From: a virus
Lineage: Duplodnaviria > Heunggongvirae > Uroviricota > Caudoviricetes
Length of the DNA: 45,010 nt
Virus record (IMG/VR): IMGVR_UViG_2917870735_000003
Strand: one strand, 5' to 3'
Below, one piece after another: positions 32,301-38,300 of the stretch (its first letter is position 1; the number at the start of each line of letters is the position of its first letter). Position numbers: made by a program.

Positions 32301-35300
32301 CCAGTCAGTGTTCGTCAGGTCGAGTTTTGATTTTCCGGCTGTCACGCCGGCCTGTTGCTTGTTACGGTTGATTTCGAGTTGGGTCCACTTTTCGCGGAGT
32401 TTGGCCGGACTTAGCACGTTACCGGACCAGAAGTTGTCCTGGCATGCCCAGCGGAACAGCACGCACATGTCGCGGTGGTTACGTCCGTCACGTTCACGCA
32501 TCAGGCGGATATCGTTAGCCCACCCTGCAAAATTCGGTTTTCTGGCTGATGGCGCGATGGTCTTCACCATGTCAAACATCCACTCTGCGGCGGTCAGGTC
32601 TTCTGCTGTCCCCCACTTGCTGCCGCTCTGAATCGCAGCATCCGGTTTCACCACAGGAAGGTCGTTTTCTGGCTGGTCAGAGGATTCGCCAGAATTCTCG
32701 GACGAAAAAGGTTTTATATTGTCTTTTGTTAGTTTGTCTTTTGTGTTTACCTGATTCGGGTAAACGTCTTTACCTGATTTGGGTAAACTTTACTTACCTG
32801 ATTCAGGTAAATTTACCTCTTTCAGGTAAACTTTATTTTTCTTACCTGATTCGGGTAATGTTGACCATTCACTGACCACATTATTAATGCCGATATTCCG
32901 CCCGCTCTGAATAAGAATCCCACGCTTTACCAGAACGCTTTTTGCAGCAGAACACTTGTGCGGCAATATCCCGGTCAATTCGGAAAGTTGCTCGTTGCTC
33001 ACCCAATCCAGTTTTTTATTAAAGCCATATGTTTTGCGCATGACAGCCAGGAAGACCAGAAGCTGGTGCTGTGTTAATCCGGCCAGCATCACAGCTTCCA
33101 GCAACTCATTTGCAATGCGCGTATAACCATCATCGAGATCTGCCACGCGCGGCTCCTTTTGTGCCACATCCGGCACTGGAAAATTGAATATCTCAGCAGT
33201 GTTTGCCATAATTCCTCCCGCAATGAGTGTGTTACGATTTGCACCTGAAAGTCGGTTCTGTTCGCGCAGACCGGCTTTCGCCATTTCTGAACCTGTCATA
33301 TTGCCCCCAGCATGGTGGTGACCATCGCCATCAGTGGACCAGCCAAATCCGGGTCCACACGAAACATCGACACAATGCCTTCACTCATCTCCTTCAGTTT
33401 CTGGTGGCGTGGTGCGTTGAGAATGACAGCCTGTTTTGCCTCACTGAGTTCCTTTTCCATTTCAGCCAGCCGAGCCATGAAGCTATCCTGCTCAACCAGG
33501 TGGCCGCGATATTCCAGCGGTAGTACCGCCAGAATTGCCGGGGTCAGTTCACGCACGTTATTTCGGTATTTTTCAGAATCGAATTTGTTATCGAGGAAGC
33601 GGAACAGCTTCTGGCGTGCACGGCTGACATCATCAGGAAAATCGATAGTGCCGCCGCCCTGCTCCCGATACTCATTCACAATGAGTGCGGCAACAACATC
33701 CTGATTATCTGCAGCCGACCAGGCGCGAACGGCATCACGGATTTTTTCGTGGCCTGGCGCCTGTTTTGTTTGAGAACGATTTATCAGCGCAGCCGGGGTA
33801 ATTCCGCTAGTCTGTTGGTATGTAATTGGTTGCATAATTGATTCCTTTAGTTTGAATTGACTGTTAATCAGTCTGTTAAGTTGATTGCTTATTGTTAAAG
33901 AGCGTGAAATGGAAATTTAAGCTGCGTTCTTTTCGGTGTGTGGAAACAACTTCGGAAGGTCCGGGCGAATCTGGTATGCCTTCACAACTCCACCAGTAGC
34001 CGTAACAATGCTGCCGACATGTTCAGGGGATACCTTTGCTTTGTTGTGAAGCCACTTATAGACGGCCTGCTGTGAAACTTCGCAGGCATCGCCCAGTTTC
34101 TTTTGTGAACCGACGATATTGATCGCGGTTTTGATTGCTGGGTTCATAACAACCTCCGTGGTTAACTTGAATCAAGATTAAACTATGGTTGTTTTTAGTC
34201 AACAACCATTTTCGTTTGATGAAATAAAACCTTGGTTGTACATTTGGTCTATGAAAACAACACTCTCAGAAAGACTTAAAGAAGCCAGATTAGCGCGAGG
34301 CCTTACACAAAAGGCGCTTGGGGATATGGTCGGGGTTAGCCAGGCTGCCATTCAGAAAATCGAAACAGGGAAAGCTAACCAAACAACTAAAATCGTGGAG
34401 ATCGCAAACGCTTTGGGTGTGCGCGCAGAATGGTTATCTTCTGGCGTTGGAAATATGTCAGACAGTACCGTGCAACCAATACAATCAACTGTCAGCCATT
34501 CAAAATACTTCAAGATTGACGTTCTTGATATAGAAGTCAGTGCCGGACCGGGTGTCATCAACCGTGAGTTTGTGGAAGTTCTACGCTCGGTTGAGTACTC
34601 GTTTGACGATGCTCGTCACATGTTCGATGGCAGGAAGGCGGAAAATATCCGCATCATTAACGTGCGCGGTGACAGCATGTCAGGGACGATCGAACCAGGT
34701 GACCTGCTGTTCGTTGATATCACTGTTAAATCTTTCGACGGTGATGGCATCTATGCGTTTCTGTACGACGACACTGCCCATGTAAAACGTCTTCAAATGA
34801 TGAAGGATAAGCTGCTGGTTATCTCTGATAACAAGAGCTACTCGCCGTGGGACCCGATCGAGAAAGACGAGATGAACCGGGTGTTCATATTCGGTAAGGT
34901 CATTGGAAGCATGCCGCAGACGTACAGGAAGCATGGTTAATTTATCTACGACTTAAGGGAGCGAAGGTTAAGGTTTATACCACTCGGATTAGATATTGCA
35001 CTAAATTCTCTATAAGAACGCCAAATCTGTTTGCATATTTCAGTAAATATTCTCGTTGTTAGCTGAGATTTGTTGCTACTGTCAGCAAAACGTCCCCCTA
35101 TCTCGTAGCGTTTTTTATTTCGAATCATTATGTTAAGATGTTTCTGATTATAATGAATGGAAACATAAAATGAGAAAAATCCTAATCGCTGCCATGATGG
35201 CATCTCTATTGGCTGGGTGTGCTTCTTCAGGCAACCAGCAACTCAAAAATGAAACTGAAATTAGTGTCCAGTCTAAACTTCAGGAAGGTAAAACAACCAA

Positions 35301-38300
35301 GAATGAGGTTAAATCTTACTTTGGTTCTCCTGATGCTGTTTCATATACTGACAGTGGAAACGAGATCTGGAAGTACGCCTTTGCAAAAGTAAAAGTTAAT
35401 GGCACCACTTTTATTCCATTCTATGGATTATTCCATAATGGAACGAACGGTACGAAAAAAGAACTTACTATTCTTTTTAACGATGACACGATTAAGAAAT
35501 ACACAATGTCAGAAACCCAAATAAACTCGAAATCAGGTTGGGCTGACTGATAATCATACCCGGCAACCGCGCCGGGTTTTCTTTTCCTCCCCCTCATAAC
35601 TCATACCGTCCAAAAAACCACCACACCTCACTTCAGTTATCGCTATGCGATGCAAGTCACAAAATAAATCCATCCTAAATACAACCAGTTATATTTAAAA
35701 TAACCGACAAAACAACTTTTGTTGTTGACGATAAAACAACTATAGTTTTAAATAAATTCATCGCAACAACACAACGATACGGCAACCACCTGTTTCACCG
35801 TTGCGATGACCGCTTAGATCCGCAGTTTGAATTTCAGCAGGCTCCGGGGAGTGCGAGGGGTGAAACGGACGCGTGAACGTCGGTGTGACCAGCTGAAATC
35901 AACTCAACATTTCATACCTTAGTCGCTTCAACGAGGCGGCTTAGTTATGACAACCGGCGGCCATCCACCGCCTGAATACGCGCAGAAGTCTTTATATGTT
36001 CAGCAGCCCAGCTTACGGGCAGGAGTTTTTATGGTTCATCAACATTACGGAACGCAGACCGTTAATCGCGGTGCGGTCATGCCAGGAATGCTGGTCAAAC
36101 ACAAAGATGGTACCTGGACTGCATCAGCTAATTTACGCGGACGGCTGTATCTGCATCGCGGCATCGAGCGCACTTATACCCGTGACTTGCTCGTGGAAGT
36201 TTTTCTCGACGGACGCGGCAACGGCCTGAATCACTAATCCCCTTTCCTGTTTTCCTAATCAGCCTAGCCTTTCCAGGGCAATAGTTTCACAGCCATTTTC
36301 AGGAGTTCAGCCATGAACGCTTATTACATTCAGGATCGTCTTGAGGCTCAGAGCTGGGTGCGTCACTACCAGCAGATCGCCCGTGAAGAGAAAGAGGCAG
36401 AACTGGCAGACGACCTGGAAAAGGGTCTGCCCCAACATTTGTTTGAATCGCTCTGCATCGATCATTTACAACGCTGCGGGGCCAGCAAAAAAGCCATTAC
36501 TCGTGCATTTGATGACGATGTTGAGTTTCAGGAGCGCATGGCTGAACACATCCGGTACATGGTTGAAACCATTGCTCACCACCAGGTTGATATTGATTCA
36601 GAGGTATAAAACGGATGAGTACAGCACTCGCAACGCTGGCTGGGAAGCTGGCTGAACGTGTCGGCATGGATTCTGTCGACCCGCAGGAACTGATCACCAC
36701 TCTTCGCCAGACGGCATTTAAAGGTGATGCCAGCGATGCGCAGTTCATCGCATTGCTGATCGTCGCCAACCAGTACGGCCTTAATCCGTGGACGAAAGAA
36801 ATTTACGCCTTCCCTGATAAGCAGAACGGCATCGTTCCGGTGGTGGGCGTTGATGGCTGGTCCCGCATCATCAATGAAAACCAGCAGTTTGATGGCATGG
36901 ACTTTGAGCAGGACAATGAATCCTGTACATGCCGGATTTACCGCAAGGACCGTAATCATCCGATCTGCGTTACCGAATGGATGGATGAATGCCGCCGCGA
37001 ACCATTCAAAACCCGCGAAGGCAGAGAAATCACCGGACCGTGGCAGTCGCATCCCAAACGAATGTTACGGCATAAAGCCATGATTCAGTGTGCCCGTCTG
37101 GCCTTCGGATTTGCTGGTATCTATGACAAGGATGAAGCCGAGCGCATTGTCGAAAATACTGCATACACTGCGGAACGTCAGCCGGAACGCGACATCACTC
37201 CGGTTAACGATGAAACCATGCAGGAGATTAACACTCTGCTGATCGCCCTGGATAAAACATGGGATGACGACTTATTGCCGCTCTGTTCCCAGATATTTCG
37301 CCGCGACATTCGCGCATCGTCAGAACTGACACAGGCCGAAGCAGTGAAAGCTCTTGGATTCCTGAAACAGAAAGCCACTGAGCAGAAGGTGGCAGCATGA
37401 CACCGGACATTATCCTGCAGCGTACCGGGATCGACGTGAGAGCTGTCGAACAGGGGGATGATGCATGGCACAAATTACGGCTCGGCGTCATCACCGCTTC
37501 AGAAGTTCACAACGTGATAGCAAAGCCCCGCTCAGGAAAGAAGTGGCCTGACATGAAAATGTCCTACTTCCACACCCTGCTGGCTGAGGTTTGCACCGGT
37601 GTGGCTCCGGAAGTTAATGCTAAGGCGCTGGCCTGGGGAAAACAGTACGAGAACGACGCCAGAACCCTGTTTGAATTCACTTCCGGCGTGAATGTTACTG
37701 AATCCCCGATCATCTATCGCGACGAAAGTATGCGCACCGCCTGCTCTCCCGATGGTTTATGCAGTGACGGCAACGGCCTTGAACTGAAATGCCCGTTTAC
37801 CTCCCGGGATTTCATGAAATTCCGGCTCGGTGGTTTCGAGGCAATAAAATCGGCTTACATGGCCCAGGTGCAGTACAGCATGTGGGTGACGCGAAAAGAT
37901 GCCTGGTACTTTGCCAACTATGACCCGCGCATGAAGCGTGAAGGCCTGCATTATGTCGTGATTGAGCGGAATGAAAAGTACATGGCGAGTTTTGACGAGA
38001 TGGTGCCGGAGTTCATCGAAAAAATGGACGAGGCACTGGCTGAAATTGGTTTTGTATTTGGGGAGCAATGGCGATGACGCATCCTCACGATAATATCCGG
38101 GTAGGCGCGATCACTTTCGTCTACTCCGTTACAAAGCGAGGCTGGGTATTTCCCGGCCTTTCTGTTATCAGAAATCCACTGAAAGCACAGCGGCTGGCTG
38201 AGAAGATAAATAATAAACAGGAGGATATATGAGTCAGGTTGGTAATCATTCATTCGAATTTCCGGCATCGCAAGGTGTACAGGGTGGTACTGTTACACTC

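What the first reader, a model, noticed from the sequence alone, without database searches (positions are those of the whole stretch)
34148..35780. Shared GTTGTT/AACAAC operator half-site at both OR and the candidate OL
OR has a perfect ATGGTTGTT-n7-AACAACCAT palindrome between cro and cI; the same half-site recurs at the candidate pL (AACAAC-tttt-GTTGTT and four more AACAAC). This defines the likely immunity specificity of this CI and supports the pL assignment.
Basis: seen in the sequence. Interest (0 to 1): 0.4.

Follow-up and report, generated by a model that had tools for sequence, protein, structure and literature searches.

The report
Phage repressor operators, 434-type geometry

Summary
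ACAAC/GTTGT words pile up only in the cro-cI gap (34149-34239) and upstream of kil-gam-bet-exo (35681-35749), about 20-40 times above background. These are the two densest spots in the 45 kb window.

The shared half-site, its link to immunity specificity and the pL call all hold. The operator geometry does not.

The unit that repeats is a 14-bp inverted repeat, ACAAC-N4-GTTGT (= ACAA-N6-TTGT, as in phage 434):
- three copies at OR, spaced 23 and 24 bp apart
- two copies at OL, 24 bp apart
- in the same register with the -35/-10 hexamers at pR, pL and pRM

The same layout recurs in Klebsiella, Providencia and Erwinia phages whose CI has the same or nearly the same recognition helix. Heteroimmune relatives (HK639, PA28, 4A7, BTP1) keep the geometry but change the half-site together with both the CI and Cro helices.

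This is an ordinary new member of a known kind. The immunity type is common: 28% of complete E. coli genomes carry it.

The parts
33917..34147 (-). cro (76 aa), a YdaS/P22-Cro-like helix-turn-helix protein; recognition-helix region VSQQAVYKW
   Evidence: ORF. Pfam YdaS_toxin 6.6e-17 and a weak P22_Cro hit. Best solved relative is Xfaso-1 Cro, 3bd1. Annotated Cro in PhiR26_1.
34149..34162 (.). S1, a candidate fourth OR site, ACAACCTCCGTGGT (9 of 10 specified bases). It lies over the cro Shine-Dalgarno at about +7 to +20 of the pR transcript.
   Evidence: It keeps 9/10 in Klebsiella (ACAACCTCCGTAGT) and Providencia (AAAACCTCCGTTGT) and is absent in Erwinia. It sits 30-31 bp from OR1. The left half is confounded with the ribosome-binding site.
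34175..34180 (-). Predicted pR -10, TAATCT (read on the minus strand); +1 at about 34168
   Evidence: Read from the sequence. The same position reads TATTCT, TATTAT and TATAAT in the Klebsiella, Providencia and Erwinia phages. Inferred, not mapped. The simple promoter scan did not list it.
34179..34192 (.). OR1, TAAACTATGGTTGT (AAAACTATGGTTGT in all 83 related loci). It fills the spacer between the pR -35 and -10; its centre is about -17.5 from the pR +1.
34185..34209 (.). It is the inner half of OR1, the pR -35 spacer and the inner half of OR2.
34197..34202 (-). Predicted pR -35, TTGACT (read on the minus strand). It overlaps OR2 by 1 bp. The spacer to the -10 is 16 bp here and 17 bp in relatives.
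   Evidence: TTGACT / TTGATT / TTGAGT in relatives.
34202..34215 (.). OR2, ACAACCATTTTCGT. The weak half TTCGT is conserved in all four lineages. Its centre is -42.5 from the pRM +1 and about -40.5 from the pR +1.
34216..34244 (+). Predicted pRM: -35 TTGATG (34216-34221), 17-bp spacer holding OR3, -10 TACATT (34239-34244). The +1 is the A of the cI ATG at 34251, giving a leaderless mRNA.
   Evidence: Sequence. The same geometry is seen in the Klebsiella, Providencia, Erwinia and 4A7 phages. A precedent is the leaderless repressor mRNA in CP-933P (PMC8630535). Inferred.
34226..34239 (.). OR3, AAAACCTTGGTTGT (9/10), inside the pRM spacer
34251..34940 (+). cI (229 aa): a 434-repressor-like HTH N-terminal domain (recognition helix VSQAAIQKIETG) plus an S24 LexA-like autocleavage domain (SAG, GDSM and VKRL motifs)
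   Evidence: PDB phmmer gives 434 repressor at E 3e-9, over residues 5-68. Pfam HTH_3 and Peptidase_S24. The start at 34251 is supported by conservation of MKTT across lineages.
35558..35587 (+). Intrinsic terminator ending the cI-lipoprotein transcription unit, just upstream of OL
   Evidence: 7-bp stem with 6 GC pairs, followed by a T run.
35681..35694 (.). Candidate OL3: a solitary consensus half-site ACAACCA (35681-35687) with no recognisable partner half
   Evidence: An ACAACC half-site lies 31 bp upstream of OL2 in the E. coli and Klebsiella phages, and 41-42 bp upstream in the Erwinia and Providencia phages. The one-helical-turn difference keeps it in phase with OL2. The evidence is weak.
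35712..35725 (.). OL2, ACAACTTTTGTTGT, a perfect 10/10 operator. Its last base is the first T of the pL -35.
35725..35753 (+). Predicted pL: -35 TTGACG (35725-35730), 17-bp spacer holding OL1, -10 TTAAAT (35748-35753); +1 at about 35760
   Evidence: The block GTTGTTGAC...ACAACTATrGTTTTwAAT is conserved in all lineages. HK639's annotated putative pL has the same register. Homology with heteroimmune phages starts at 35760-35761.
35736..35749 (.). OL1, ACAACTATAGTTTT (9/10), exactly 24 bp from OL2 in all four lineages
35761..35946 (+). pL leader shared with heteroimmune phages. It contains the non-operator AACAAC at 35765 and ACAAC at 35771.
   Evidence: No Rfam hit and folding z-score 0.22.

Best explanation
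This is the immunity switch of a lambdoid E. coli prophage. CI dimers, and Cro, are proposed to bind 14-bp twofold-symmetric operators with consensus ACAACYA.TRGTTGT. That is the ACAA-N6-TTGT architecture of phage 434, with C specified at position 5.

OR holds three operators between the divergent cro and cI genes:
- OR1, 34179-34192
- OR2, 34202-34215
- OR3, 34226-34239

OL holds two, OL2 (35712-35725) and OL1 (35736-35749). Neighbouring operators are 23-24 bp apart centre to centre.

At pR and pL the -35 hexamer (TTGACT / TTGACG) begins on the last base of the upstream operator (OR2 / OL2). The downstream operator (OR1 / OL1) fills the -35/-10 spacer, so a bound repressor would exclude RNA polymerase.

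pRM mirrors this on the other side of OR2: TTGATG, 17 bp containing OR3, then TACATT. Its +1 falls on the A of the cI ATG, which would make the mRNA leaderless. OR2 is centred at -42.5, as in lambda and 434. This suits CI-dependent activation of pRM from OR2 and repression from OR3.

Shown here:
- the sites themselves, their constant geometry and their positions
- their conservation
- covariation of the half-site with the CI and Cro recognition helices
- homology of the CI N-terminal domain to 434 repressor

Inferred:
- the actual binding and the affinity order
- the promoter hexamers and start sites
- activation of pRM
- cooperativity and looping
For: 1. Geometry in the window. With up to 2 mismatches, ACAAC-N4-GTTGT hits 34149, 34179, 34202, 34226, 35712 (perfect) and 35736. 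With up to 1 mismatch there are 5 hits in 45 kb, 4 of them in the two regulatory gaps. By my own estimate, about 1.3 would be expected by chance in the whole window.

2. De novo spacing and orientation scan. Only the inward N4 arrangement gives 4-5 sites per phage in every lineage. Every other spacing or orientation gives 3 or fewer.

3. Comparative evidence. The E. coli group, Klebsiella phage ST101-KPC2phi6.1 and Providencia PSTCR7lys have an identical CI helix, VSQAAIQKIETG; Erwinia phiEt88 has VSQANIQKLENG. All four keep OR1/OR2/OR3 at 23-24 and 24 bp and OL2/OL1 at exactly 24 bp, while the spacers and leaders diverge.
   - The 40 half-sites give A1 40/40, C2 28/40, A3 36/40, A4 40/40, C5 36/40.
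   - The weak half of OR2, ACGAA, is conserved in all four.

4. Heteroimmune relatives keep the geometry but change the word.
   - HK639 has three perfect ATAAC-N4-GTTAT sites at OR, and its annotated putative pL is in the same register.
   - PA28 uses ATAAC.
   - 4A7, PhiR30_1 and BTP1 use ATAGC / ATACG.

5. Three-way covariation of CI helix, Cro helix and half-site:
   - SQAAIQK / SQQAVYK with ACAAC
   - SQPAIQK / SQPAVHK with ATAAC
   - AQPTIWR / AQPTVWR with ATAGC
   - 434 CI TQQSIEQ with ACAA(G/T)
   - the Gln is invariant and so is base A1.

6. The best solved homologue of the CI N-terminal domain is 434 repressor (E 3e-9, 37% identity).

7. Population data from 80-81 loci. Operator core columns are polymorphic at 5 of 50, all singletons. 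Other intergenic columns are polymorphic at 36 of 118 (Fisher p = 0.005).

8. In heteroimmune phages the OL module is replaced exactly up to the predicted pL +1 at about 35760.
Against: - No binding data exist for this CI or Cro; every site assignment is computational.
- The simple sigma-70 scan did not list pR, pL or pRM, because their -10 hexamers are weak (3-4 of 6). The promoter register rests on cross-phage conservation only.
- In annotated phage 434 the pR -35 lies between OR2 and OR3 and OR1 follows the -10. The operator-promoter register proposed here therefore differs from the closest known system.
- Several sites have one poor half (OR2 8/10; window OR1 8/10).
- The loci used for the population test are related, so the Fisher p-value is only indicative.
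Confidence: 0.85

Rival explanations
1. The 25-bp outward palindrome ATGGTTGTT-N7-AACAACCAT is itself the OR operator, bound by one CI dimer. pL would carry the same kind of site.
For: It is the longest perfect dyad in the region. It spans the pR -35, so a protein bound there would also repress pR.
Against: - GTTGT-N9-ACAAC with up to 2 mismatches has one good site in the window and none at OL; 13 hits were seen against 20 expected.
- The corresponding spacing is N10 at OL and in Erwinia, and N10-N11 in HK639. Rare alleles have T4 or T6 in the spacer.
- In Klebsiella the hexamer is not kept (TACAAC); only the pentamer survives.
- The model leaves unexplained the conserved outer halves GTTTT / TTCGT and the third site next to cI.
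- A 434-like HTH dimer reads inward ACAA...TTGT halves.
Confidence: 0.05
2. The palindrome acts as a nucleic-acid hairpin: an intrinsic terminator or attenuator, or a cruciform. On this view it is not a protein-binding site.
For: The terminator scan lists it on both strands, with 9 pairs and a T-rich tail.
Against: - Only 3 of the 9 pairs are G-C.
- It lies upstream of both predicted start sites (pR +1 about 34168, pRM +1 34251), so neither main transcript contains it.
- Its two arms are explained as consensus half-sites that recur at three other operators with no hairpin partner.
- The spacing between the arms is not conserved across lineages.
Confidence: 0.03
3. The ACAAC words are read in a different register, or by a different protein, from the proposed 14-mers. 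For example, Cro (a different HTH family, YdaS-like) or a host factor could use another register, or CI could bind single half-sites in a non-434 manner.
For: - The Cro protein is not a 434-Cro homologue.
- Solitary half-sites exist at 35681, and in the leader at 35765 and 35771.
- 933W repressor, another 434-like N-terminal domain, uses 15-bp sites without adjacent-site cooperativity (PMC3317979), so the family is not uniform.
Against: - The Cro recognition helix co-varies with the CI helix and with the same 5-bp word in three specificity groups.
- The N4 spacing is invariant in more than 20 sites.
- The leader copies also occur in heteroimmune phages.
Confidence: 0.07

Closest known systems
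Phage 434 repressor/Cro with OR1-3 and OL1-3 (14-bp ACAA-N6-TTGT operators; structures 1PER, 2OR1, 1RPE)
   Same: - The CI N-terminal domain is homologous (E 3e-9, 37% identity).
- Operators are 14 bp and twofold-symmetric, with ACAA / TTGT as the outer four bases.
- The Gln at the start of the recognition helix is conserved, and so is base A1.
- Three OR sites lie 22-24 bp apart between divergent cI and cro.
- OR2 is centred about -42 or -43 from pRM.
- CI carries an S24 autocleavage domain.
   Different: - Position 5 is C here and G/T in 434.
- Helix residues 29, 30, 32 and 33 differ (Q-S-E-Q in 434, A-A-Q-K here), so heteroimmunity is expected.
- Cro belongs to the YdaS / P22-Cro-like family, not the 434-Cro family.
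- The pR -35 lies between OR1 and OR2 here, and between OR2 and OR3 in the annotated 434 record.
- The cI mRNA is predicted to be leaderless, whereas 434 has an annotated ribosome-binding site.
- Only two clear OL operators are found, plus one solitary half-site.
- The 'cII' is YdaT-like, and there is no N gene downstream of pL.
Phage HK639, and the Stx-phage PA28 type immunity regions
   Same: - The same CI, Cro (YdaS-like) and YdaT-like cII families are present. CI N-terminal domain identity is 57-59%, Cro identity 62-63%.
- The 14-bp N4 geometry and the operator-promoter register are the same. HK639's annotated putative pL is TTGCCA-17-TATCTT with OL1 in the spacer.
   Different: - The half-site is ATAAC rather than ACAAC.
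- The helix reads SQPA rather than SQAA / SQQA.
- HK639 carries an annotated putL-like antiterminator RNA. I found no support for one here.
- As far as I could find, the HK639 operators are not experimentally mapped either.
CP-933P PaaR2 / YdaS / YdaT switch of E. coli O157:H7 (PMC8630535)
   Same: - The YdaS-type protein acts as Cro and the YdaT-type protein as CII.
- There are divergent pR and pRM promoters, and the repressor mRNA is leaderless.
- The repressor and YdaS footprint over the same ~97-bp intergenic region, and there is a matching pL/OL.
   Different: PaaR2 is reported to lack sequence similarity to lambda CI. The repressor here is a classical HTH + S24 CI.
Phage 933W repressor and operators (PMC3317979)
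   Same: Its N-terminal domain was also modelled on 434 repressor, and it has operators at both OR and OL.
   Different: - Its operators are 15 bp, symmetric about a central base pair.
- It has different recognition residues (S41, K42, K46).
- It shows no cooperative binding to adjacent sites.
- It is not the same specificity group.

Membership tests
434-type CI repressor/operator systems | The CI N-terminal domain is homologous to the 434 repressor HTH domain | tested here: met
   phmmer against PDB: 1per / 1r69 at E 3.2e-9 over residues 5-68. Identity is 37% in alignment A4. Pfam HTH_3 at 2.5e-13.
434-type CI repressor/operator systems | 14-bp twofold-symmetric operators, ACAA-N6-TTGT | tested here: met
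   Five sites match ACAAC-N4-GTTGT at 8-10 of 10 bases with invariant internal spacing. The annotated 434 operators were read for comparison.
434-type CI repressor/operator systems | Base-contacting residues Gln28, Gln29 and Gln33 of the recognition helix | tested here: not met
   Only the Gln28 equivalent is kept. Positions 29 and 33 are Ala and Lys (VSQAAIQKIETG against TTQQSIEQLENG). The fold and geometry are the same, but a different specificity is expected.
434-type CI repressor/operator systems | Cro is homologous to 434 Cro and shares the CI recognition residues | tested here: inconclusive
   Cro is of the YdaS / P22-Cro-like family. Its best PDB hit is Xfaso-1 Cro at E 0.0055, not 434 Cro. 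Its helix start (SQQA) does parallel that of CI (SQAA).
434-type CI repressor/operator systems | Operator-promoter register: OR2 between the pR -35 and -10, and OR1 after the -10 | tested here: not met
   The best -35, TTGACT, lies between OR1 and OR2, which puts OR1 in the pR spacer. The 434 annotation is. The promoters here are predicted, not mapped.
434-type CI repressor/operator systems | Same immunity as 434 (cross-repression) | not testable with these tools
   It is predicted to be heteroimmune, because position 5 and the helix residues differ. A plating or repression assay is needed.
Lambdoid CI/Cro bistable switch | Divergent cI and cro genes with a tripartite OR, plus a distal OL at the early-left promoter carrying the same sites | tested here: met
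Lambdoid CI/Cro bistable switch | RecA-inducible LexA-like (S24) C-terminal domain in CI | tested here: met
   Pfam Peptidase_S24 at 1.2e-18. UmuD' hits in PDB. The Ala-Gly (SAG), GDSM and VKRL motifs are visible in the translation.
Lambdoid CI/Cro bistable switch | CI at OR2 activates pRM; binding is cooperative between adjacent sites; OL and OR loop together | not testable with these tools
   The geometry is compatible: OR2 is at -42.5 from the cI ATG, and sites are 23-24 bp apart. 933W shows that relatives can lack cooperativity (PMC3317979).

The most novel reading that the evidence does not exclude
OR may hold four operators rather than three, arranged as a mirror-symmetric divergent promoter.
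- OR2 would sit about -41 to -43 from both pR and pRM.
- OR1 and OR3 would each fill one promoter's spacer.
- An extra site, S1 (34149-34162), would lie over the cro Shine-Dalgarno at +7 to +20, three helical turns from OR1.
- OL would use a solitary half-site, one or two helical turns further out, as its third element.

This register differs from both lambda and 434. It would imply that pR is repressed essentially through OR1 (plus a roadblock at S1). CI at OR2 would then be positioned as a potential activator of either promoter.
Probability: 0.25. Interest if true: 0.4.

Novelty: new member of a known kind. Interest (0 to 1): 0.28.

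Why it matters
The practical value is modest but real. 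This immunity module is in 1524 of 5426 complete E. coli genomes and in hundreds of IMG/VR contigs. My limited literature searches found no description of its operators.

Knowing the 14-bp operator (ACAACYA.TRGTTGT) has several uses:
- Prophages can be sorted into superinfection-immunity groups from sequence alone.
- It predicts which prophages cross-repress.
- It supplies, together with the ATAAC and ATAGC sister groups, a set of naturally orthogonal repressor/operator pairs.
- It provides a small natural 'recognition code' linking residues 2-4 of the recognition helix to operator positions 2, 4 and 5. This code could be tested against the 434 structures.

Conceptually it is a textbook lambdoid switch. 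No new principle is involved.

Tried and rejected
1. A put-like antiterminator RNA downstream of pL, as extra support for pL. HK639 has one annotated. Here the leader 35760-35935 has no Rfam match and folds no better than shuffled sequence (z = 0.22). I dropped the idea.

2. 933W repressor as a characterised close relative. PA28's Cro is annotated 933W-like. However, the 933W repressor has other recognition residues and 15-bp operators (PMC3317979), so it does not apply.

3. Full-text search for the operator strings. It returned only unrelated primer matches.

4. The simple sigma-70 scan. It listed none of pR, pL or pRM. It did list a minus-strand TTGCGA-16-TATAGT inside OL, which I treat as chance. 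The promoter calls therefore rest on cross-phage conservation.

5. A full OL3 operator. Only a solitary half-site was found; the 14-mer 35681-35694 matches 7/10.

6. The extra site at 25511 with at most 1 mismatch, upstream of the lysis genes. It is consistent with the roughly 1.3 sites I estimated by hand to be expected by chance.

7. One call failed on a search term that was too short, and I repeated it.

Full report
**Context**

The window carries a lambdoid prophage immunity region. The layout, is:
- cro at 33917-34147 (minus strand), a YdaS/P22-Cro-like protein
- a 103-bp gap
- cI at 34251-34940 (plus strand), with a 434-like HTH domain and an S24 peptidase domain
- a BamE-like lipoprotein moron at 35170-35550
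- an intrinsic terminator at 35558-35577
- an AT-rich gap
- kil, gam, bet and exo on the plus strand

The gene upstream of cro (33296-33835, minus strand) is YdaT-like. It occupies the cII position. YdaS- and YdaT-type proteins have been shown to act as Cro and CII analogues in CP-933P (PMC8630535).

**Checking the observation**

ATGGTTGTT-N7-AACAACCAT is at 34185-34209 and AACAAC-tttt-GTTGTT is at 35711-35726.

Window-wide, AACAAC is only mildly enriched: 36 occurrences against 26.9 expected. The enrichment is concentrated instead. The two regulatory gaps hold 4 hexamers each, or 5 and 6 ACAAC pentamers, where 0.1-0.2 would be expected. They are the two densest 126-bp windows in the 45 kb. 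The clustering is real.

**What the repeating unit is**

I tested two geometries.

Only one is good, the palindrome itself, and none lie at OL.

The inward dyad, ACAAC-N4-GTTGT, hits these sites:
- 34149 (1 mismatch)
- 34179 (2 mismatches)
- 34202 (2 mismatches)
- 34226 (1 mismatch)
- 35712 (perfect)
- 35736 (1 mismatch)

With at most 1 mismatch there are 5 sites in the window. Four are in the two gaps. By my own estimate, about 1.3 such sites would be expected by chance in the whole window.

An unbiased scan of spacings 0-14 in both orientations singles out inward N4. It gives 4-5 sites per phage, and every other arrangement gives 3 or fewer.

Centre-to-centre spacings are 23 and 24 bp at OR and 24 bp at OL. 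The large palindrome is therefore the inner half of OR1 (...ATGGTTGT) and the inner half of OR2 (ACAACCAT...), facing each other across a 9-bp spacer that carries the pR -35.

**Comparative evidence**

The immunity module is very common:
- more than 580 IMG/VR hits
- 1524 of 5426 complete E. coli genomes
- six sequenced coliphages, including PhiR26_1, PhiR34_1 and Turner

Three diverged phages give a useful footprint. Klebsiella ST101-KPC2phi6.1 and Providencia PSTCR7lys have the identical CI recognition helix, VSQAAIQKIETG. Erwinia phiEt88 has a near-identical one, VSQANIQKLENG.

All three keep OR1, OR2, OR3, OL2 and OL1 with the same internal N4 spacing. The inter-operator spacing is 23-24 bp at OR and exactly 24 bp at OL. 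Meanwhile the leaders and spacers diverge.

Forty half-sites give the matrix A1 40/40, C2 28/40 (A in 11), A3 36/40, A4 40/40, C5 36/40, Y6, A7 32/40.

The weak half of OR2, ACGAA, is conserved in all four lineages. This is reminiscent of the intrinsically weak OR2 of lambda.

Within the E. coli population (80-81 loci), operator core columns are polymorphic at 5 of 50, all as singletons. Other intergenic columns are polymorphic at 36 of 118 (Fisher p = 0.005). The loci are related, so this p-value is only indicative.

**Heteroimmune relatives and covariation**

Phages of the same CI/Cro family but with different recognition helices keep the architecture and change the half-site.
- HK639 has three perfect ATAAC-N4-GTTAT sites at OR and two at OL. 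Its annotated putative pL (TTGCCA-17-TATCTT) has OL1 in the spacer.
- PA28 also uses ATAAC.
- 4A7, PhiR30_1 and BTP1 use ATAGC / ATACG.

The CI and Cro helices change in step with the half-site (434 operators):

| Group | CI helix | Cro helix | Half-site |
|---|---|---|---|
| This window | SQAAIQK | SQQAVYK | ACAAC |
| HK639 / PA28 | SQPAIQK | SQPAVHK | ATAAC |
| 4A7 / BTP1 | AQPTIWR | AQPTVWR | ATAGC / ATACG |
| 434 | TQQSIEQ | not compared here | ACAA(G/T) |

The Gln is invariant, and so is base A1. From my own knowledge of the 434 structures, this matches the contact between Gln28 and adenine 1 in the 434 complex.

The CI N-terminal domain's best solved homologue is 434 repressor (E 3e-9).

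**Promoters (inferred)**

pR and pL share one module: GTTGT-TGAC(T/G)-[8-9 bp]-ACAAC(C/T)ATAGTTT(T)-(-10).

- **pR** (minus strand): -35 TTGACT at 34202-34197 and -10 TAATCT at 34180-34175. At the same position the relatives read TATTCT, TATTAT and TATAAT. The predicted +1 is about 34168.
- **pL**: -35 TTGACG at 35725-35730 and -10 TTAAAT at 35748-35753. The predicted +1 is about 35760.
- **pRM**: TTGATG (34216-34221), then 17 bp containing OR3, then TACATT (34239-34244). The +1 falls on the A of the cI ATG, which would make the mRNA leaderless. This matches lambda (from my own knowledge) and CP-933P. OR2 is centred at -42.5.

The same pRM geometry holds in the Klebsiella, Providencia, Erwinia and 4A7 phages.

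The simple promoter scan did not list any of these. This register also differs from the 434 annotation, where the pR -35 lies between OR2 and OR3.

**What is not an operator**

Heteroimmune phages match the window from position 35760-35761 onward at 96-99% identity (sequences). The AACAAC at 35765 and the ACAAC at 35771 therefore belong to the common pL leader, not to the immunity-specific module.

The AACAAC at 34256 is codons 2-4 of cI.

The AACAAC at 34148 is the spacer between the cro Shine-Dalgarno and the ATG. It also forms the left half of a 9/10 site, S1 (34149-34162). S1 is kept at 9/10 in Klebsiella and Providencia but is absent in Erwinia. I list it as a candidate fourth site.

A solitary ACAACCA half-site lies upstream of OL2. 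It sits 31 bp upstream in E. coli and Klebsiella, and 41-42 bp upstream in Erwinia and Providencia. This is a candidate OL3.

**Verdict**

The proposed operator, the large palindrome, is a by-product of two adjacent 434-type 14-bp operators.

This is an ordinary lambdoid switch and a new member of the 434-like repressor/operator kind. The immunity group is very widespread. In my limited searches I found no published description of its operators.

Noticed in passing
window 34180-34182: The window has AAA where all 83 other same-immunity loci have AAAA, including the closest E. coli genome (99.5% identical). This 1-bp deletion lies inside OR1 and the pR spacer. It shortens the pR spacer from 17 to 16 bp, weakens OR1 from 9/10 to 8/10, and shifts S1-OR1 spacing from 31 to 30 bp. 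It could be a homopolymer sequencing error or a real regulatory mutation.
   Followed up: partly
window 34941-35660; L002, L003, L093: The interval between cI and OL is a variable cargo slot. It holds a BamE-like lipoprotein here (35170-35550), nothing in PhiR34_1, a DUF6932 protein plus a hypothetical protein in E. coli ECNB21-M121, and rexA/rexB in the Klebsiella phage.
   Followed up: partly
window 35760-35946: There is no N-like ORF between pL and kil. The ~190-nt pL leader is 96-99% conserved across heteroimmune phages. It has no Rfam match and no excess folding energy (z = 0.22). How early antitermination works in this phage group is unclear; HK639, a relative, has an annotated putL-like RNA.
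   Followed up: partly
L031 (IMGVR_UViG_2728369554_000011), OR and OL: One related prophage carries several regulatory changes at once: OL2 GTTGT->GTTTT, OL1 A1->G, and pR -35 TTGACT->TTGATT. This suggests a decaying or operator-mutant prophage.
   Followed up: no
window 31059-31245 (-) and 30405-31010 (-): Rfam C4 antisense RNA (31059-31143) and isrK (31169-31245) sit next to an ORF (30405-31010) whose N-terminus looked to me like a BRO-N / antirepressor type; I ran no domain search on it. If so, the prophage may have a second, antirepressor-based induction route besides CI autocleavage.
   Followed up: no
window 26100-26492 (-): There is a full-length cspA thermoregulator match (158 bits) in front of a 71-aa ORF (26116-26331), probably a prophage-borne cold-shock protein gene.
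   Followed up: no
window 34185-34250: The ORF list and the PhiR34_1 annotation start cI at the ATG inside the palindrome (34185, giving 251 aa). Cross-lineage conservation and the 434 alignment support the ATG at 34251 (229 aa, MKTT...) with no Shine-Dalgarno, which fits a leaderless pRM transcript.
   Followed up: yes
window 25511-25524: A single operator-like 14-mer, ACAGCAAACGTTGT (1 mismatch), lies in the gap upstream of the 71-aa and 165-aa ORFs at 24730-25442, which I take to be holin and endolysin from their position (not checked). It fits my chance estimate of about 1.3 such sites per window.
   Followed up: partly
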